IMG/VR virus record: IMGVR_UViG_2657245112_000034
Direction: 5' to 3' (one strand)
DNA length: 9,239 nt
From: a virus
Lineage: Duplodnaviria; Heunggongvirae; Uroviricota; Caudoviricetes
The position numbers and the translations under genes were made by a program. Below, piece after piece: positions 1 to 8,833 of this stretch (its first letter is position 1; every line of letters begins with the position of its first letter). The notes under the pieces are model-generated. The model searched no databases. It saw only the letters and a list, made by a program, of their open reading frames with translations, and was not told where the DNA came from.

Positions 1-192
1 TTGTTCTGGTGTTATCGGAGAGGCTTTTGGTGTTTTGCCCTGACGCTCATCACGCAGTTGTTTGACCCATCTTGTCATTGTGGAAAGGCCAACATCCATA
101 GCTTTGGCGGCATCTGCCACCGTGTATGTCTGGTCAACAACCAGTTGAGCGGATTCGCGTTTAAACTCTGCGCTAAAATTTCTTTTTTTCAT
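1..192 (-). CDS. IS3-family transposase OrfA (HTH DNA-binding part), N-terminal 64 codons; 3' part lies outside window
   Basis: Hand translation from ATG (forward cat 190-192): [64 protein letters not shown], matching from memory the IS911 OrfA N-terminus. Not in the ORF track because it runs off the window. Confidence 0.8.
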
Positions 193-264
193 TGGAGCAC
201 CTGTGTTGTTCTGAGGTGAGCATATCACCTCTGTTCAGGTGGCCAAATTCAGTAAACCACTTCA
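1..264 (-). mobile_element. Partial IS3-family insertion sequence (IS911-like), left end only; element continues beyond window start
   Basis: Minus-strand translation of 1..192 is a recognisable IS3-family OrfA N-terminus; terminal sequence on minus strand begins TGAAGTGG (forward ccacttca at 257-264, repeated at 265-272), consistent with IS3-family TG...CA ends. Exact end (264 vs 272) uncertain. Confidence 0.7.
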
Positions 265-292
265 CCACTTCAGAGCAGACGAGACAAAAAGA

Positions 293-865
293 ATGGTTGA
301 CGCATCAGCTCAACCCCATATAGTTGTAACACTTGAGCCAAACCCTTGGGCCGCTTTTTACTTTGATATTAACATTGCTAATACAGGGAACGCACCTGCC
401 TATAATGTTGAGGTTGTGTTTGATCCTCCACTAGTAAATGCGGAGCATAGAGAAAAAAGTGAGATTCCGTTTAGTAAGGTAAGCGTGTTAAAAAATGGGC
501 AATCACTTACCAGCAATCTCTGTAAGTATGAACAAATCAAAGATCAAATTTATAATATTAATATAAGCTGGGCAAGCAAACCTAAATCAAACGATAGAGA
601 AACAAATGAATATGTGTATGACATGGCGACATTTGAAGGAATAAGTTATCTAGGAGCGAGAAGCCCATTGACGCAAATTGCAGAACAAATTAAAGGTATA
701 AGAGAGGATTGGAAACCTATTGCACAAGGAGCTAAAAAAGTAAAAGCAGACGTATATACTTCAAGCGATAGAAACGAAGAACGCACGTATCTGCAAGAGC
801 AACACGATTTGGCAATAAAAAGGAGAGATGAGAAAAGAGAAAAAAGATTAGAGTCTGGTGAATAA
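293..865 (+). CDS. Hypothetical protein, 190 aa from ATG 293 (frame open from GTG 239 inside the IS end); possibly 5'-truncated by the IS insertion
   Basis: ORF track 239..865; first ATG at 293 with weak purine-rich upstream (gacgagacaaaaaga). AT-rich codon usage; charged C-terminal tail RRDEKREKRLESGE. No family recognised. Confidence 0.5.
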   Translation: MVDASAQPHIVVTLEPNPWAAFYFDINIANTGNAPAYNVEVVFDPPLVNAEHREKSEIPFSKVSVLKNGQSLTSNLCKYEQIKDQIYNINISWASKPKSNDRETNEYVYDMATFEGISYLGARSPLTQIAEQIKGIREDWKPIAQGAKKVKADVYTSSDRNEERTYLQEQHDLAIKRRDEKREKRLESGE

Positions 866-874
866 TTTTAAAGG

Positions 875-895
875 GAGTGGGTAACTAACCCACTC
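875..895. terminator. Hairpin between convergent genes (8-bp stem gagtgggt/acccactc, 5-nt loop), possible bidirectional terminator
   Basis: Perfect inverted repeat gagtgggtaactaacccactc lying between the stop at 863-865 (+) and the stop at 914-916 (-); no long T-tract on either side, so weak as an intrinsic terminator. Confidence 0.35.
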
Positions 896-913
896 GTAAC
901 TATAAACCTGTAA

Positions 914-1738
914 TTAATCACTTATTTTTGACAACAGATAATTACTGAACGCACTGCAAGTGACTAACATAAATTTAGCTTCAGCTAAGGTAGGATTTAC
1001 ATCTTCTTCTGTTAGCGCATGACGTATTCCACCCTGATCACTTGTATAACCATAGAGCTGACTAAAAGCGCCTTTCATTGCAGAGTGTATATATCCTTTT
1101 TCCTCTATAGCTTTAAGACAAGCCCCCAAGGTTCCTTTATCATTGCCCGTGATTTTCCTGCATAAAGATTCAATTGCAGAGATAGACTCTTTAATCGAGT
1201 TTCTGTAGTCTGGCTGCTCTCTATCCGTCATTAGTTGTAACGCCCTTTCGAAATGGCTACGCGATGAATCAGTGCCATTATCAACTGCGTTCTGAACACT
1301 TTCAATTTCGTTATCATTTGAAATAGGAGTAATACAACCATTTATTATGGTATAACCAACGCCATGCTTTTTAAAGATGGAATTGAGATGCTTCGATAGA
1401 TTAATATATGAATTAGTTCTCTCAATGATGAACTCAATTAAATCATATACCAAATACCATGCTTCCCCATATATATAATCTCGGATAGCAGTCAGCAACG
1501 TCTTATCACTTTTGTATCCACTTTCATAACGAGGAATATTATCCGCAGGTTGATTTAGATAATATATCCACACAGACTGCGCACATTTTGTTGCTGTAGC
1601 AGTTTGACGATTGTTAGTCCAAAGGAAAAGATATAAGCAATTCCACAATGCCATGCGTGTATCAGAATTAAGATCATTCAGCTGGACATGCTCTCTAACG
1701 TCAACATGACCATACCTCACAGAAAATGGCTTTATCAT
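914..1738 (-). CDS. Hypothetical protein, 274 aa, AT-rich; function unknown
   Basis: Long uninterrupted ORF; ATG at 1738 preceded by purine-rich caggcaggggaaga; W/Y-rich N-terminal half and helix-like C-terminal half. No catalytic motif confidently recognised by eye. Confidence 0.65.
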   Translation of the reverse strand: MIKPFSVRYGHVDVREHVQLNDLNSDTRMALWNCLYLFLWTNNRQTATATKCAQSVWIYYLNQPADNIPRYESGYKSDKTLLTAIRDYIYGEAWYLVYDLIEFIIERTNSYINLSKHLNSIFKKHGVGYTIINGCITPISNDNEIESVQNAVDNGTDSSRSHFERALQLMTDREQPDYRNSIKESISAIESLCRKITGNDKGTLGACLKAIEEKGYIHSAMKGAFSQLYGYTSDQGGIRHALTEEDVNPTLAEAKFMLVTCSAFSNYLLSKISD

Positions 1739-2271
1739 TCTTCCCCTGCCTGATTGTTATGTTCGTTTAAATTATGCAGTCTAAGTTTGATACAATCATA
1801 TATTAAGCAATAGAATCCATAAAGCCCCGTTGGTGGTAAGACAACAAGCGGAGCCTCTTGCGACTTCATCAGGGTTATGTCAGTTAGTGAGGCTTATCAG
1901 GATGACCATGTACCCAAGGGGAGCGAGGCCGAACCGCTGGCAGAGCTTGCATATGGTCTGCAAGTACCGTGACCACCATAAACCTGTTTATCCCCTGCGG
2001 CGTCTCGCGACGGCGACAGAATGGGGGCATCGGGCTAAAATGCGCTGCACTAAAAGTTTTGGGATTGTTTAGAGACGGTGGCTACGTCATAGCTTTCAAG
2101 TTGAGTCAGTACGTGTTTGACGCTTGGAACGACACGCCGCTATGAGTTAACATCCCAATTACCACTATCAACCACAGCGGCTTTTTCAAGGGACATAACA
2201 GAGCATTTCTTACAGGCAAAAGAGACAGATTTAATCGTCTAACTAACTGTATTGTAAGGAATTTAGTAACT

Positions 2272-2292
2272 TGGTGCGAAGGCCGGACTCGC
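2272..2292 (-). other. att-like site: partial copy of a tRNA-Leu (leuX-type) 3' end, probable satellite attachment-site repeat marking the left boundary
   Basis: Minus strand reads GTGCGAGTCCGGCCTTCGCACCA; the 15-nt CGAGTCCGGCCTTCG plus CACCA matches, from memory, the T-arm/acceptor 3' end of leuX (P4 integrates at leuX) with one G missing. Upstream sequence is AT-rich and not tRNA-like, so this is a fragment, not a gene. Confidence 0.45.
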
Positions 2293-2374
2293 ACACACAT
2301 TTAACCTATTGTAAAAATTGAAATTTAATTATAATTAATTCAATTATGCCCCTTTTTGTGCCCCCACCATTCTC

Positions 2375-5781: not shown

Positions 5782-5789
5782 ATGGGTGG

Positions 5790-5875
5790 TGACCCGAACG
5801 GGGGTAGGAATACCGGCCTTATTGGAAACCGGCCAGCCCGAAGGCTGCCCCGCCCGGACCACCATTATCTGAAAG
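5790..5875 (-). ncRNA. Candidate P4 CI-like immunity RNA (boundaries approximate)
   Basis: No credible ORF; holds the single complementary element (transcript CCGGUAUUCCUACCCCCG, forward gtaggaa 5805-5811) and a CAGCC-UUCG-GGCUG tetraloop hairpin (forward 5834-5847). Matches P4 seqA/seqB/seqC logic. Confidence 0.4.
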
Positions 5876-5930
5876 GGGCTAAGGTATAAGCACCGCAGCC
5901 CGAAAAATGGGTGTGCCTGAGCAACGACGT

Positions 5931-5953
5931 AAAAAAAGACGCACGGCGCGTCT
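5931..5953 (-). terminator. Intrinsic terminator / attenuator in the leader between the seqA-like element and the RNA
   Basis: Transcript AGACGC-GCCGU-GCGUCU followed by seven U (forward A-tract 5931-5937), read directly from the minus strand. Confidence 0.45.
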
Positions 5954-5971
5954 GGTGTCGCCAATAAGTAA

Positions 5972-5990
5972 CTCGGGTTCCTACGCCCGG
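5972..5990 (-). promoter_or_regulatory. seqA-like RNA target element (transcript GGGCGUAGGAACCCGAG)
   Basis: Forward gttcctacgc at 5977-5986; complementary to the UUCCUAC-CCC element at 5801-5816 (about 10 of 11 positions can pair). Confidence 0.45.
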
Positions 5991-6015
5991 CAGCCGATTT
6001 TGCGGCAGCGGGAAA

Positions 6016-6045
6016 ACTATACCTGGAAAAGATATCAGGACGCAA
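6016..6045 (-). promoter_or_regulatory. Sigma70-type promoter candidate (P_LE-like) for the immunity / early-left transcript
   Basis: Minus strand TTGCGT (forward 6040-6045), 18-nt spacer, TATAGT (forward 6016-6021), just downstream of the vis stop; predicted start near 6008. Confidence 0.4.
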
Positions 6046-6341: not shown

Positions 6342-6830
6342 CTGGCTACCTCTCTAATATGTTTACAACAGTCCGGGCAATTCCATGCGGATTCAGGTAG
6401 CTCCTTATTATGTTTATATAAGCGGCTCGCGCATGCTTTATTTATTTTGTGTGAAATGTTGATTTCTCAAAAAATAAAACAGCTAAAAACCGTATGAAAC
6501 GAACAAAAACAAACAATTCCTTTATGGAATATAATAAGGAGCATCAATAATAAAAAAGTCTATTACACTAGGCAGGATCACAGCTCAAATCTGAACCAGC
6601 CCATATCATTCAGGGCGTTACATCATAAGCACTAAGACAACACCTGATTAATAAAAGAGCCAAAACGGCCAAAAATAAACAGCTCACCATATGTATCAAT
6701 AAATCCGATGATTAAAGAAATTAAATTACCATCTTACTTCCGCATGTATCCGGATGTGTTTAATGAACATCAGACAAATTCATTTTTATGAATATTTTCC
6801 TGAAATGCAACTGAGTGCAGGGAGGTTGAA

Positions 6831-6847
6831 TGTTTAATTATTAAACA
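6831..6847. promoter_or_regulatory. Perfect 17-bp palindrome TGTTTAAT-T-ATTAAACA, candidate operator
   Basis: 8+1+8 palindrome verified base by base; the half-site TGTTTAAT recurs at 6757-6764 and 6981-6988. Confidence 0.3.
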
Positions 6848-6886
6848 GACATAAGACATCTTTTATTCTTTACATAGAATATGTAT

Positions 6887-7100
6887 TGAATACTGGTGAA
6901 TACTGGTGAATATTGGTGAGGAGAAAAGATCCAGTAATAAACTGAAATAAATATCGCGACTTATATGAAAAAGAAATATATGTTTAATTTTATCTCTGTG
7001 AACAGTCATGAACAGTAGATGATCACTTTAATTAAAACACTACACCACTTAACCACATGTATTTACTATATTTTTATTGAAGTGAACAGTAGTGAATAGT
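6887..7100 (+). repeat. ori-like cluster of alpha-iteron-like octamers, including three tandem 10-bp units
   Basis: TGAATACTGG x2 and TGAATATTGG (6887-6916) give GGTGAATA at 6895 and 6905; GTGAACA at 6998 and 7082, ATGAACA at 7008, GTGAATA at 7092; all same orientation, paired at 10-bp spacing; about 4.5 kb from the crr-like patch. Confidence 0.45.
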
Positions 7101-7165
7101 ATGTATTAAAGGAAGCGTGTAGATCAGACATGACACCTTTCTCTGGCTAGCCAGAACAAGGTCAT

Positions 7166-7183
7166 TGTTCAGTCACTGACACA
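7166..7183 (+). promoter_or_regulatory. P_sid-like late promoter activator site, TGT-N12-ACA dyad
   Basis: TGTTCAGTCACTGACACA has an internal palindrome CAGTcACTG; centre is about 81 bp upstream of the sid-like ATG; weak -10-like CACAAT at 7218-7223 and no clear -35, as expected for Ogr/Delta-dependent P2/P4 late promoters. Confidence 0.4.
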
Positions 7184-7255
7184 ATCCTCCTCGGTAGTGC
7201 GCTTGTATGGACCCCGGCACAATTGACACAACAACAAAACACTACCGGAGCAGTC

Positions 7256-8008
7256 ATGACTACTGTTAACCAGATCCCTGATGCAAACATTACACCCTCC
7301 CTCCCACCGAAAATTCGCGAAGCGGTGGATAAAGTTAAGGCAGCAAAAGCTGTCTGGCAGGAAGAACGACGAAAACAAACTGAAGCTGCTGCAATGATTG
7401 AAACTATCCGTAAACGTCAGGAAGATACAAAAACGGAAACGCAGGCGCTTAATGATGAATGGCGAAACCTGTTTCGTGAGAATCAGGGAAATATGACGCC
7501 ACGCATGAAAAAACTGCGGGCAGAAATCGCCCTCGGACGCGAAACACTGGATGAGTTCGAAGATTTGCTGGCAGCTCAGGCGGCAGAAAATGAATTCCTG
7601 CCCTGGAAAACTGCGGATGCTGCAAACCACTACATCAGCGAACATAATCGCCTGATTGAAACTCATGCAGTGTGGCTCTGGAATGAGTTTATGAAGGAAC
7701 ACGGTCAGAAACTTATTCAGATCCTTGGACTGCTGAAAATGACTCTGGGCCGAAGCGCTTCTGCTGTTATCGGTGTAGTTCATACCGTAAACGACCCCGA
7801 AAGTGTGCTGAAGCAATTTATCAGCGAGCAACTCACCACTCCGGCACTGTCCTGTAACGTATCTTCAACCGATGATATTACCCTGCCGGGGATCAGCATT
7901 TATGCGGACGATAAAGCCATCCAGGATGCCAGACAATCCCCCAGCCCTGCAGCGCGTTCACGGATGCTTAAACAGCGTGACATGGTTAAAGGGGGCGAGA
8001 AGAAATGA
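7256..8008 (+). CDS. Sid-like protein by position (alpha-helical, coiled-coil-rich), 250 aa
   Basis: ATG at 7256 with GGAG 5 nt upstream (ORF track starts at TTG 7223); first gene after the late promoter; heptad-like charged helices (WQEERRKQTEAAAMIETIRKRQEDTKTE...). Assignment is by synteny, not recognised sequence. Confidence 0.6.
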   Translation: MTTVNQIPDANITPSLPPKIREAVDKVKAAKAVWQEERRKQTEAAAMIETIRKRQEDTKTETQALNDEWRNLFRENQGNMTPRMKKLRAEIALGRETLDEFEDLLAAQAAENEFLPWKTADAANHYISEHNRLIETHAVWLWNEFMKEHGQKLIQILGLLKMTLGRSASAVIGVVHTVNDPESVLKQFISEQLTTPALSCNVSSTDDITLPGISIYADDKAIQDARQSPSPAARSRMLKQRDMVKGGEKK

Positions 8009-8559
8009 ATGCCGGAACCATTACTCAGGAAGCACTCAACGATTACCGCTCGGCGATAAAAAGCTGGCTGACACTACGTAATACGCAAAGTACCTACCAG
8101 CTTCGTCTGGCGGCTCTGCTGGATACTGAAGAAAAACCGGCAGCATATGCCAGCCAGCTTGAGGATCTTCGTGAGCGTCTTGCAGTCCTCGAATGGCAGA
8201 TTAACTGTGCTGCACGGGATGGTCTTTATGCTCATCAGATTGTGCTGGAGAGTTGTGTTACAAGCGCAACGGAAAACTTCATGAGCGAGCATGGTGATGC
8301 ACTCACTGACGCTCTGGCTCCTTTTCTTTGCGCTCCATACGGGCTTGAGGCGGCAATGAAAATATTACGAACCGCTGTAGCCCGACAAACGGAAATGCGT
8401 ACTCCGGTAATTTCAGCAGCATATAAGAGCATTATCGACGAAACCGGATTAACGGTGGATGCATCAATGCGCGCTGATGCTTCAGCCAGTTTCACCCCGG
8501 CACAACATAAAGTTTTCCTGGCCCGCCTTAACCGACTTAATGAAAAAGGAGTGTGCTGA
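8005..8559 (+). CDS. psu: Psu-like protein (polarity suppression / capsid decoration), 184 aa
   Basis: Start overlaps the sid-like stop in ATGA (8005-8008); segments SWLTLRN, LEWQINCAA, DALAPFL and FTPAQ agree with my recollection of P4 Psu; predicted all-helical. Confidence 0.6.
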   Translation: MNAGTITQEALNDYRSAIKSWLTLRNTQSTYQLRLAALLDTEEKPAAYASQLEDLRERLAVLEWQINCAARDGLYAHQIVLESCVTSATENFMSEHGDALTDALAPFLCAPYGLEAAMKILRTAVARQTEMRTPVISAAYKSIIDETGLTVDASMRADASASFTPAQHKVFLARLNRLNEKGVC

Positions 8560-8560
8560 T

Positions 8561-8833
8561 ATGGCCCTGAAGTGTCCTGAATGTGGCGCGGTCGCTCACG
8601 CCAGAACCAGCGCCTATGAAGCTCCGTCGGTTAAACGCTCATGGTATCAGTGCCAGAATCTGGAATGTTCCTGCACATTTACCGCACTGGAAAGCGTGGA
8701 TACGATAATTATGAAGCCTCGGTGCAATGAACAGGAATCAGACAAAGCAAAAATACCGGAAAAACAACAGCAAACTCTCAATCGCTATGGCTCCGCGTCA
8801 AAGCTGTCAAACCGTCAGCAAATTCCTGTCTGA
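8561..8833 (+). CDS. Ogr/Delta-family zinc-finger late transcription activator, single domain, 90 aa
   Basis: ATG at 8561 with AAGGAG upstream (the ORF-track start at 8459 overlaps psu and is rejected); CPECGAVAHARTS...QCQNLECSCTF matches the P2 Ogr Cys4 signature. Confidence 0.85.
   Translation: MALKCPECGAVAHARTSAYEAPSVKRSWYQCQNLECSCTFTALESVDTIIMKPRCNEQESDKAKIPEKQQQTLNRYGSASKLSNRQQIPV

What the first reader, a model, noticed from the sequence alone, without database searches (positions are those of the whole stretch)
239..1738. Uncharacterised AT-rich convergent two-gene module between an IS911-like end and the satellite att fragment
Two ORFs (293..865 plus, 190 aa; 914..1738 minus, 274 aa) are visibly more AT-rich than the satellite core, converge on a shared 8-bp-stem hairpin, and sit outside the element boundary next to an IS end. 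That is typical placement for horizontally acquired accessory or defence cargo near a tRNA integration hotspot. I recognise no family for either: the first has a charged K/R/E tail (RRDEKREKRLESGE), the second a W/Y-rich N-terminal half and a helical C-terminal half with no canonical HEPN Rx4-6H, Walker or PD-(D/E)xK motif that I can see. This is my best candidate for something undescribed, but the evidence is context only.
Basis: partly seen in the sequence, partly recalled or inferred. Interest (0 to 1): 0.6.

Follow-up and report, generated by a model that had tools for sequence, protein, structure and literature searches.

The report
Catalogued defence candidate beside a broken gene
The two AT-rich genes are unrelated leftover cargo of a mobile element at the leuX tRNA gene in E. 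coli: one is an intact, already catalogued but untested candidate anti-phage protein, and the other is a fragment of a membrane protein gene cut off by an insertion sequence.

Summary
In detail: both ORFs, the AT-richness, the 8-bp hairpin, the IS911 end and the leuX att fragment are all present.

- **ORF1** is a 5'-truncated remnant. Full-length relatives (228-235 aa; phrog_11802, named DUF8453 in RefSeq, "lysogenic conversion protein" of the P2 Z-region) start with a membrane helix. The IS911 insertion removed that helix and the promoter.
- **The two are not a system.** None of 57 species-level loci with an ORF1 homologue has an AbiJ_NTD4 gene within 5 kb. ORF2 homologues sit alone in every other locus examined, usually just after an integrase, once inside prophage tail genes.
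- **Both sit in a variable cargo slot** of a roughly 15-kb leuX integrative element. Other strains carry different cargo there. A P4-like satellite later integrated in tandem.

The block occurs in 479 of 5426 complete E. coli genomes, including Nissle 1917. This is ordinary, already annotated cargo of modest interest.

The parts
1..264 (-). Left end of an IS911-family (IS3) element, with the 5' part of orfA (start at 192, minus strand)
   Evidence: 97.7% identical over 1-264 to an annotated IS911 copy in E. coli STK77-E, and homology stops at 264. RefSeq annotates 'IS3 family transposase, frameshifted' here.
265..272 (.). 8-nt repeat of the IS tip (TGAAGTGG on the minus strand) at the IS/ORF1 junction
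   Evidence: Read directly from the sequence.
273..865 (+). ORF1 remnant: a 5'-truncated gene of the phrog_11802 / DUF8453 family. The annotated CDS is 293-865 (190 aa). About 37 N-terminal codons, including the membrane helix, and the native promoter are missing.
   Evidence: phrog_11802 matches at 7e-86, starting at profile position 37 of 230. Full-length homologues are 228-235 aa with an N-terminal hydrophobic helix. The DNA alignment shows homology beginning at the IS junction. A model of homologue P0040 has a helix at 2-49, a 7-strand beta-sandwich at 54-154 and two C-terminal helices.
875..895 (.). Hairpin (8-bp stem, 5-nt loop) between the convergent stop codons; possibly a bidirectional terminator
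   Evidence: Energy -16.2 kcal/mol, z -3.1. The stem is conserved in L002 and L003 and absent from P2-EC53, where ORF1 stands alone. No T-run is present.
914..1738 (-). ORF2: intact 274-aa AbiJ-NTD4 + HEPN-fold protein, PADLOC candidate PDC-S32 (WP_000594911.1)
   Evidence: Pfam AbiJ_NTD4 scores 95.5 bits against a cut-off of 34. PDC-S32 scores 345.8 bits over the full length. 4437 homologues were found. RefSeq uses the same name.
1280..1729 (-). ORF2 N-terminal AbiJ_NTD4 domain (residues 4-153), the inferred sensor
   Evidence: Domain limits. The model is alpha+beta with pLDDT mostly above 85. The sensor role is the hypothesis of Anantharaman et al. 2013 (PMC3710099).
920..1270 (-). ORF2 C-terminal HEPN-fold domain (residues about 157-273). 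Invariant residues are E190 and R239-H240; D234 and G237 are also invariant within the PDC-S32 subfamily. There is no Rx4-6H.
1800..2270 (.). Highly conserved non-coding block: the leuX-proximal backbone end of the integrative element that carries ORF1 and ORF2
   Evidence: 97-100% identical in three lineages whose flanking proteins are only 77-94% identical. It is present in 630 E. coli genomes, beside leuX or a leuX fragment in every copy whose flank was examined, and also beside other cargo. No Rfam hit, no tandem repeats and no excess folding energy.
2272..2294 (-). 3' fragment of tRNA-Leu(CAA) (leuX) with a 1-nt deletion: the att junction between the older element and the P4-like satellite
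   Evidence: Similarity to Nissle 1917, E. roggenkampii and an ENA contig ends at 2294/2295. The homologous position in L002 is an intact tRNA-Leu(CAA).

Best explanation
Window 273-2294 is what remains of the variable cargo region at the leuX-proximal end of a roughly 15-kb integrative element. That element reads: leuX, a 470-bp conserved arm, a cargo slot, a serine recombinase, a DEAD-box helicase, small genes, then an integrase. An IS911-family insertion removed the rest of the element together with the 5' end of ORF1. A P4-like satellite later integrated into leuX in tandem and left the tRNA fragment at 2272-2294.

The slot holds two independent cargo genes.

1. **ORF2 is intact.** It is a single-gene candidate anti-phage protein (AbiJ-NTD4 family, PADLOC PDC-S32). 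The inferred mechanism is that the N-terminal AbiJ_NTD4 domain holds the C-terminal HEPN-fold domain inactive until it recognises a phage component. The HEPN domain, probably as a dimer, then cleaves RNA and stops growth of the infected cell (abortive infection). The usual Rx4-6H dyad is replaced by an invariant adjacent R239-H240 pair, so either the catalytic chemistry is non-canonical or the domain is not a nuclease.
2. **ORF1 is a remnant.** It derives from a membrane-anchored beta-sandwich protein (phrog_11802 / DUF8453, the "lysogenic conversion" gene of the P2 Z-region). It has lost its membrane helix and promoter and is most likely non-functional here. The intact family may act in phage exclusion at the inner membrane; this is inference from context only.

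**Shown:** family memberships, the fold, the truncation, the independence of the two genes, and the element context. **Inferred:** defence activity, RNase activity, the sensor role of the N-terminal domain, and the exclusion role of the ORF1 family.
For: **ORF2 family and fold**
- Pfam AbiJ_NTD4 at 5.8e-27 and PADLOC PDC-S32 at 5.6e-104 over the full length.
- The architecture of AbiJ-NTD4 fused to a HEPN domain, and the sensor/toxin hypothesis, are described in PMC3710099.
- PDC systems are 145 untested candidates found embedded in BREX, DISARM and type I RM loci (bioRxiv 10.1101/2024.01.29.577857).

**ORF2 occurs alone**
- It directly follows an integrase in Klebsiella, Enterobacter and Pantoea, and sits inside a prophage tail/baseplate cluster in Pectobacterium.
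- It also occurs on plasmids and in phages of several phyla.

**ORF1 truncation and independence**
- Truncation is shown.
- 0 of 57 species-level ORF1-homologue loci have an AbiJ_NTD4 gene within 5 kb, and there is no universal neighbour.
- It stands alone in the Z-region of P2-EC53 and of phage R18C.
- There are 1952 cluster representatives; the 150 best listed are stand-alone proteins of 100-344 aa, with no domain fusion evident.

**Element context**
- Similarity ends at leuX.
- The same backbone carries different cargo (DUF3800/PDC-M04A and others) in E. coli STK77-E and Kosakonia.
- The pair is in 479 of 5426 complete E. coli genomes at 99% identity or more, and the same IS-truncated ORF1 lies beside intact ORF2 in the strains examined, including Nissle 1917.
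Against: - No experiment shows defence for PDC-S32 or for any AbiJ-NTD4 protein. PDCs are explicitly untested.
- Sequence-level links to Abi_C or DUF4145 are marginal: 2 and 9 of 45 members at E values of 0.01-0.2. No solved structure matches by sequence.
- Mapping H240 onto the canonical motif's histidine is my inference from pattern, not from a computed alignment.
- The ORF1 remnant stays open in frame through the IS end and could still be translated.
- The conserved hairpin and the 48-nt spacing shared by three lineages show that the pair has travelled together for some time.
Confidence: 0.62

Rival explanations
1. One reading: ORF1 and ORF2 form one two-gene defence or toxin-antitoxin module that works together.
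For: The convergent pair, with the same 48-nt spacer and hairpin, is conserved in E. coli, Enterobacter roggenkampii and an ENA metagenome contig. A weak echo exists in the virulent Rhizobium phage RHEph01. Its gp056 is homologous to ORF2 residues about 122-274, essentially the HEPN-like C-terminal domain without most of the N-terminal domain (E 1.7e-37). Its gp054, two genes away and convergent, is a membrane protein with a beta-sandwich that resembles the ORF1 model (Foldseek E 3.8e-4, TM-score 0.24-0.29).
Against: 0 of 57 ORF1-homologue loci contain an AbiJ_NTD4 gene. ORF2 homologues at 41-61% identity stand alone. ORF1 stands alone in the P2 Z-region, and in Kosakonia it shares the slot with different genes. 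In the E. coli genomes examined ORF1 lacks its 5' end while ORF2 is intact, so ORF2 is tolerated without a complete ORF1. PADLOC models PDC-S32 as a single gene. The gp054 match has no sequence support (E 0.04 in a 5-sequence search).
Confidence: 0.07
2. ORF2 is not a nuclease. Its HEPN-fold domain has lost the Rx4-6H site and acts as a ligand- or protein-binding module, for example as a regulator, a decoy, or a sensor for an effector encoded elsewhere. Any defence role would then be indirect or absent.
For: No Rx4-6H appears in any of 45 close or 9 distant homologues. Non-catalytic HEPN folds (sacsin, MtlR, nucleotidyltransferase substrate-binding domains) are among the structural matches. 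Abi_C and DUF4145 profile hits are marginal.
Against: E190, R239 and H240 are invariant across homologues at 22-32% identity in several phyla, as expected of a catalytic or otherwise essential site. Solitary placement after integrases, inside prophages and in BREX/RM-embedded positions is typical of autonomous defence genes.
Confidence: 0.2
3. ORF2 is the toxin of a type III toxin-antitoxin pair, as for AbiV and AbiF. Its RNA antitoxin would be encoded in the unusually conserved 470-nt non-coding block upstream (1800-2270).
For: The block is 97-100% conserved while the flanking genes diverge. AbiV and AbiF, both HEPN toxins, are type III systems (PMC13064643).
Against: The block has no tandem repeats, no Rfam match and no excess folding energy (z +0.23). 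It occurs without ORF2, beside other cargo or an IS1, and lies beside leuX or its fragment in every copy examined. ORF2 homologues in Klebsiella, Enterobacter and Pantoea lack the block and sit 39-45 nt downstream of an integrase gene.
Confidence: 0.04

Closest known systems
PADLOC PDC-S32 (single-gene phage defence candidate; Payne et al., bioRxiv 10.1101/2024.01.29.577857)
   Same: ORF2 matches the model over its full length (345.8 bits, residues 3-272 against profile 8-281 of 285) and occurs as a single gene.
   Different: Nothing differs. ORF2 is a member. The family itself is untested, so the name carries no mechanism.
AbiJ-NTD4 + HEPN proteins of Anantharaman et al. 2013 (prototype CBY_0614; NCBIfam STM4504/CBY_0614)
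   Same: Same architecture: an N-terminal alpha+beta AbiJ_NTD4 domain (Pfam 95.5 bits) and a C-terminal HEPN-fold domain.
   Different: ORF2 hits the NCBIfam model only marginally (15.8 bits against a cut-off of 150). That paper lists Rx4-6H as conserved in the AbiJ HEPN family; here it is replaced by adjacent R239-H240.
Lactococcus AbiJ and S. aureus SadR (Abi_C / PF14355 HEPN RNases)
   Same: Single-protein systems with a HEPN-fold C-terminal effector domain, and presumably abortive infection by RNA cleavage. SadR's RNase and defence activities need its RNEYGDAH motif (PMC13590631).
   Different: ORF2 does not reach the Abi_C model (no hit for the window protein; 2 of 45 relatives at E 0.23). 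It has SDQGGIRH where SadR has RNEYGDAH; this alignment is my inference. In that paper only 3 of 2815 Abi_C proteins carried AbiJ-NTD4.
P2 Z-region (Z/fun locus) 'lysogenic conversion' genes: P2-EC53 ORF1 (CAD54906.1) and the phage R18C hypothetical protein
   Same: ORF1 is 69% identical to the P2-EC53 protein over the retained part. The family is prophage and mobile-element cargo.
   Different: The window copy lacks the N-terminal membrane helix and sits in a leuX element, not in a P2 prophage. No function has been shown for any member.
P4 satellite defence hotspot (between psu and int; Rousset et al. 2022, PMC9122126)
   Same: A variable cargo slot in an integrative element at leuX, where different strains carry different defence-type genes at one position.
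   Different: The pair is not in the P4 hotspot. It lies beyond the att fragment on the alpha-primase side, in a different element built around a serine recombinase and a DEAD-box helicase.

Membership tests
Pfam AbiJ_NTD4 (PF18863) | N-terminal domain matches the model above the gathering score | tested here: met
   95.5 bits against a cut-off of 34; residues 4-153 against profile 2-151 of 152. All 45 aligned homologues match.
PADLOC PDC-S32 | Full-length match to the PDC-S32 profile | tested here: met
   PDLC04997 at 5.6e-104 and 345.8 bits; residues 3-272 against profile 8-281 of 285.
PADLOC PDC-S32 | Single-gene organisation with no obligate partner | tested here: met
   Homologues stand alone after integrases or inside prophages. 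No ORF1-like partner is present there.
PADLOC PDC-S32 | Demonstrated anti-phage activity | not testable with these tools
   PDCs are described as 145 untested candidates. No paper in the held library mentions PDC-S32.
HEPN superfamily | Helical up-and-down bundle fold of the HEPN domain | tested here: met
HEPN superfamily | Conserved Rx4-6H catalytic motif | tested here: not met
   No conserved R-x(4-6)-H in 45 close or 9 distant homologues. R239-H240 are adjacent and invariant, and the position where the canonical R would sit is S, T, C or N.
HEPN superfamily | RNase activity | not testable with these tools
   This needs biochemistry.
AbiJ / Abi_C (PF14355; DefenseFinder AbiJ, SadR) | C-terminal Abi_C domain above threshold, with the R-polar-x(3-5)-H motif | tested here: not met
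   The window protein has no Abi_C hit. 2 of 45 relatives hit at E 0.23. The motif is absent.
phrog_11802 / DUF8453 (P2 Z-region lysogenic conversion protein) | Profile match to the family | tested here: met
   phrog_11802 at 7e-86 and 288.6 bits. RefSeq names the gene 'DUF8453 domain-containing protein' in some genomes. It is 69-80% identical to full-length members.
phrog_11802 / DUF8453 (P2 Z-region lysogenic conversion protein) | Complete protein with the N-terminal membrane helix | tested here: not met
   The match starts at profile position 37. The conserved segment AALLTAVATFFLWRVT is missing, and homology starts at the IS911 junction.
Two-gene toxin-antitoxin or defence operon (ORF1+ORF2) | Conserved co-occurrence of the two families across lineages | tested here: not met
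   0 of 57 ORF1-homologue loci have AbiJ_NTD4 within 5 kb. The pair is seen only in three closely related versions of one element.
P4-like satellite defence hotspot cargo | Location between psu and int of a P4-like element | tested here: not met
   The pair lies left of the att fragment at 2272-2294, next to the alpha-primase end. psu and delta are at 8005-8833.
Dpd (7-deazaguanine) island | A dpd gene cluster around the DpdF-like helicase of the related element | tested here: inconclusive
   The helicase of the E. roggenkampii element scores 1066 bits on one PADLOC DpdF model. The annotated STK77-E element has only small hypothetical genes, an HNH endonuclease and an integrase, and no other dpd gene was seen. 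None of this DNA is in the window.

The most novel reading that the evidence does not exclude
Two readings remain possible.

1. The AbiJ-NTD4 clade, which includes PDC-S32, could be a HEPN lineage that has rebuilt its active site around an adjacent Arg-His pair (R239-H240, with E190) in place of Rx4-6H, and could act as an autonomous abortive-infection RNase.
2. The phrog_11802 / DUF8453 family could be an undescribed single-gene phage-exclusion protein anchored in the inner membrane. It has 1952 cluster representatives and is carried in the P2 Z-region, in conjugative elements and in leuX elements.

A long-shot extension is a functional link between the two folds. It is hinted at only by the virulent Rhizobium phage RHEph01, which encodes an N-terminally truncated copy of the HEPN-like domain two genes from a membrane beta-sandwich protein. 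That copy could be an anti-defence decoy.
Probability: 0.3. Interest if true: 0.5.

Novelty: new member of a known kind. Interest (0 to 1): 0.3.

Why it matters
ORF2 is present, intact and nearly invariant in about 9% of complete E. coli genomes. These include the probiotic Nissle 1917, the reference strain ATCC 25922 and the O26/O103/O111 Shiga-toxin-producing lineages. If PDC-S32 is active, it is a common and so far unvalidated determinant of phage host range in strains relevant to phage therapy and probiotic engineering.

The invariant Arg-His pair in a HEPN fold that lacks Rx4-6H is a clean mutational target. It could show whether this clade is a non-canonical RNase.

The locus also illustrates a general caution. 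Adjacent cargo genes in a mobile-element slot are not necessarily a system. The slot itself, between the 470-bp arm and the serine recombinase of a leuX element, looks like a defence-gene exchange site comparable to the P4 and P2 hotspots.

Tried and rejected
1. **Two-gene system.** Rejected on co-occurrence: 0 of 57 loci, plus solitary ORF2 homologues.
2. **RNA antitoxin or ncRNA in 1800-2270.** No Rfam hit, no tandem repeats, folding z +0.23, and the block occurs without ORF2.
3. **Integrase pseudogene in 1739-2270.** A tblastn search with the Klebsiella integrase that precedes an ORF2 homologue gave only noise (E 0.38 or worse).
4. **Pair as cargo of the P4 hotspot.** Rejected by position.
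5. **Dpd island.** Only the helicase matches a DpdF model. The element is a small integrase/recombinase/helicase/HNH element.
6. **Sequence links to solved structures.**
   - Full-length ORF2 profile: none.
   - ORF2 C-terminal domain profile: none.
   - ORF1 family profile: only coiled-coil noise.
8. **Literature.**
   - Nothing in the held library for PDC-S32.
   - Nothing for DUF8453.
   - Nothing for the protein accessions.
   - The DefensePredictor supplements were not held, so I could not check whether one of its four validated HEPN systems is this protein.
9. **Residue-level alignment of ORF2 to a bona fide Abi_C or HEPN profile.** Not possible, because no such profile or sequence was available to hhalign. 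The H240 mapping therefore remains inference.
Full report
**1. The observation**

The window carries an ORF at 239/293-865 on the plus strand and an ORF at 914-1738 on the minus strand, 274 aa. RefSeq annotates exactly these two CDSs in identical E. coli DNA: WP_000227281.1 "hypothetical protein" and WP_000594911.1 "AbiJ-NTD4 domain-containing protein". GC content is 0.373 across 293-1738, against 0.51-0.52 for the P4-like genes to the right.

Between the two stop codons lies an 8-bp stem, GAGTGGGT/ACCCACTC, at 875-882 and 888-895. Its folding energy is -16.2 kcal/mol with z -3.1. The stem is conserved in two diverged relatives, one of which has a different loop. It has no T-run and the terminator scan does not call it.

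To the left, 1-264 is 97.7% identical to an annotated IS911 copy, and 265-272 repeats the 8-nt tip of the IS. To the right, 2272-2294 is the reverse complement of the 3' end of tRNA-Leu(CAA) with one base missing. The description is therefore accurate.

**2. ORF2**

ORF2 matches Pfam AbiJ_NTD4 over residues 4-153 (95.5 bits against a cut-off of 34). It also matches the PADLOC model PDC-S32 over its whole length (5.6e-104). The protein search returned 4437 homologues, all carrying PF18863.

- **Background on the N-terminal domain.** AbiJ-NTD4 was defined by Anantharaman et al. 2013 as one of five N-terminal domains fused to AbiJ-type HEPN domains. The proposal was that the N-terminal domain senses a phage component and restrains a suicidal HEPN RNase (PMC3710099).
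- **Background on PDC systems.** These are 145 untested candidates found embedded in BREX, DISARM and type I RM loci (bioRxiv 10.1101/2024.01.29.577857).
- **Sequence-level links are weak.** There is no Abi_C hit for the window protein. Abi_C matches 2 of 45 relatives and DUF4145 matches 9 of 45, both at marginal E-values. No solved structure matches by sequence.
- **Motif.** Among 45 close homologues the invariant C-terminal residues include H162, R179-N180, E184, E190, H218, D234, G237 and R239-H240. Among nine homologues down to 22% identity, from plasmids and phages of Pseudomonas, Rhizobium, Arthrobacter, Pantoea and Curtobacterium, the invariant residues in this domain are R173, I182, E190, R239, H240, A254 and L268.
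- **Comparison with a proven relative.** The RNase and defence activities of S. aureus SadR depend on RNEYGDAH (PMC13590631). In the equivalent place, just before the last long helix, ORF2 has SDQGGIRHA. This positional equivalence is my inference, not a computed alignment.

ORF2 is therefore a member of AbiJ_NTD4 and PDC-S32 and has a HEPN fold. It fails the motif test for a canonical HEPN RNase, and it fails the Abi_C test for AbiJ proper.

**3. ORF1**

There is no Pfam hit in the copy used. phrog_11802 matches at 7e-86, but the match begins at profile position 37 of 230.

- **What is missing.** Full-length homologues are 228-235 aa. They begin with a hydrophobic helix (...AALLTAVATFFLWRVT...) followed by basic residues. 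The window copy starts at "ADETKRM", just after that helix.
- **Where the break is.** A DNA alignment with E. roggenkampii, an ENA contig and P2-EC53 shows homology starting at window position 273-275. IS911 sequence replaces everything upstream, that is about 37 codons and the promoter.
- **Other decayed copies.** Other E. coli copies carry different truncations or an IS1A insertion.
- **Structure.** A model of the full-length homologue P0040 (pLDDT 81.5) shows a helix at 2-49, a seven-strand beta-sandwich at 54-154 and two C-terminal helices. Fold searches return only generic Ig-like matches.
- **Size of the family.** There are 1952 cluster representatives at E 1e-3 or better. The 150 best listed are stand-alone proteins of 100-344 aa, with no domain fusion evident.
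- **Known homologues.** The closest annotated ones are the "putative lysogenic conversion protein" in the Z-region of P2-EC53 and a hypothetical protein between the tail-fibre and sheath genes of phage R18C. Newer RefSeq records name the gene "DUF8453 domain-containing protein".

**4. Are the two genes a module?**

The convergent pair with the same spacer is conserved in E. roggenkampii and in one metagenome contig.

| Comparison with the window copy | ORF1 (aa identity) | ORF2 (aa identity) |
|---|---|---|
| E. roggenkampii (L002) | 80% | 94% |
| ENA metagenome contig (L003) | 77% | 78% |

The wider evidence is against a functional pair.

- A scan of one genome per species found 57 loci with an ORF1 homologue. 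An HMM of ORF2 found no AbiJ_NTD4 gene within 5 kb in any of them.
- Clustering of neighbouring ORFs found no universal partner.
- ORF2 homologues at 54-61% identity in Klebsiella, Enterobacter and Pantoea sit alone directly after an integrase. A 41% homologue in Pectobacterium is an inserted accessory gene inside a prophage tail/baseplate cluster.
- In the E. coli genomes examined ORF2 is intact while ORF1 is decapitated, so ORF1 is not a required antitoxin.

I conclude that these are two independent cargo genes.

**5. What the locus is**

Similarity between the window and Nissle 1917 (99.8%), E. roggenkampii (89.8%) and the ENA contig (81%) runs from 274 to 2294/2295 and stops there. In E. 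roggenkampii the next bases are an intact tRNA-Leu(CAA) followed by core genes.

The 470 nt next to the tRNA (window 1800-2270) are 97-100% identical in all three, although the genes beside them are much more diverged. The block occurs in 630 of 5426 complete E. coli genomes.

In strain STK77-E the annotated order is leuX, the block, three other genes (a hypothetical, DUF3800 = PDC-M04A, a hypothetical), a serine recombinase, a DEAD/DEAH helicase, small genes, an HNH endonuclease and an integrase. This element is about 15 kb. The E. roggenkampii element has the same recombinase and helicase but carries ORF1 and ORF2 in the slot. Kosakonia has an ORF1 homologue plus DUF3800 plus a 190-aa gene there.

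ORF1 and ORF2 thus occupy a variable cargo slot in a leuX integrative element. In the window strain three things have happened:

- IS911 has replaced everything beyond ORF1 and joins the remnant to the fec region.
- A P4-like satellite sits on the other side of the tRNA fragment, consistent with a later tandem integration at leuX. It comprises alpha primase, C4 RNA, isrK, and sid/psu/delta.
- The P4 defence hotspot lies between psu and int (PMC9122126), which is at the far end of the satellite. The pair is therefore not P4 cargo.

**6. Mechanism**

- **Shown:** the architecture, the fold, the invariant residues, the solitary mobile distribution and the cargo-slot context.
- **Inferred for ORF2:** it acts as a single-protein abortive-infection system. 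The AbiJ_NTD4 domain would recognise a phage product and release the HEPN-fold domain, which would cleave RNA. In lactococcal AbiJ, escape mutations fall in ssDNA-annealing proteins (PMC13064643), but that protein has a different N-terminal domain. Because Rx4-6H is missing, I give about 0.2 to the rival that the domain is non-catalytic.
- **Inferred for the intact ORF1 family:** it is a membrane-anchored protein with its C-terminal domain in the cytoplasm, by the positive-inside rule applied to the sequence. Its place in the P2 Z-region suggests phage exclusion, because in P2 itself that locus holds Z/fun, which blocks T5 (my own knowledge, not checked here). This is context only. The window copy is most likely a pseudogene.

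**7. Novelty and verdict**

ORF2 is annotated in RefSeq, belongs to a Pfam family described in 2013 and is catalogued as an untested PADLOC candidate. ORF1 is a fragment of a recognised domain of unknown function. The pair occurs in 479 complete E. coli genomes.

The finding is therefore not undescribed. It is an ordinary, partly decayed cargo region. Three points keep some interest:

- No AbiJ-NTD4 or PDC-S32 protein has been tested experimentally.
- The HEPN fold carries an invariant Arg-His pair instead of Rx4-6H.
- The DUF8453 family is large, mobile and of unknown function.

Interest is 0.3.

Noticed in passing
window 1800-2270: A 470-nt non-coding block is 97-100% identical between E. 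coli, Enterobacter roggenkampii and a metagenome contig, although the flanking proteins are only 77-94% identical. It is present in 630 of 5426 complete E. coli genomes and lies next to leuX or a leuX fragment in every copy examined. It has no Rfam hit, no repeats and no excess folding energy. It is probably the att-proximal backbone arm of a roughly 15-kb leuX integrative element; its function is unknown.
   Followed up: partly
L076 (E. coli STK77-E, NZ_CP162190.1 4436800-4451600); L002; L013: A roughly 15-kb integrative element at leuX (serine recombinase, DEAD/DEAH helicase that scores 1066 bits on a PADLOC DpdF model, HNH endonuclease, integrase at the far end) has a slot between the conserved arm and the recombinase. 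Different strains carry different cargo there: ORF1+ORF2, DUF3800/PDC-M04A with two hypotheticals, or ORF1+DUF3800. It looks like a defence-gene exchange site and may be a phage satellite.
   Followed up: partly
L082 (Rhizobium phage RHEph01, JX483873.1 38521-43444): [quoted passage not shown] Two genes away and convergent is gp054, a 291-aa membrane protein whose predicted fold weakly resembles the ORF1 family (Foldseek E 3.8e-4, TM-score 0.24-0.29, no sequence support). This could be an anti-defence decoy or a coincidence.
   Followed up: partly
window 265-272: The terminal 8 nt of the IS911 end (TGAAGTGG on the minus strand) are repeated directly outside the IS. The IS tip also differs from the reference-like copy (TTT in place of CAC at positions 9-11).
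   Followed up: no
window 5782-6022 (minus strand): Rfam finds C4 antisense RNA (83.4 bits), isrK (72.1 bits) and the c4-a1b1 target (43.8 bits, just under its gathering score) in the P4-like satellite remnant. This is the expected P4 immunity region.
   Followed up: no
window 6350-7200: A second AT-rich stretch (GC 0.29-0.38) with no long ORF lies between the AlpA-like gene and the sid-like gene of the satellite. It was not examined.
   Followed up: no
L072 (E. coli Nissle 1917, NZ_CP058217.1 4363399-4378884): Nissle 1917 has the same IS-truncated ORF1 and a near-identical ORF2 (WP_000594912.1). An IS30 is inserted in the IS911 copy. Beyond the 25-nt leuX fragment lies a different element (HTH protein, membrane protein, recombinase, DUF1643, integrase) instead of the P4-like satellite.
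   Followed up: partly
L010-L012 (Pectobacterium): An ORF1 homologue sits immediately upstream of a 209-aa unknown gene and an ABC-ATPase pair matching PADLOC NsnB, PDC-M55A and AriA profiles, inside a relaxase-bearing element. This is another defence-island-like context for the DUF8453 family.
   Followed up: partly
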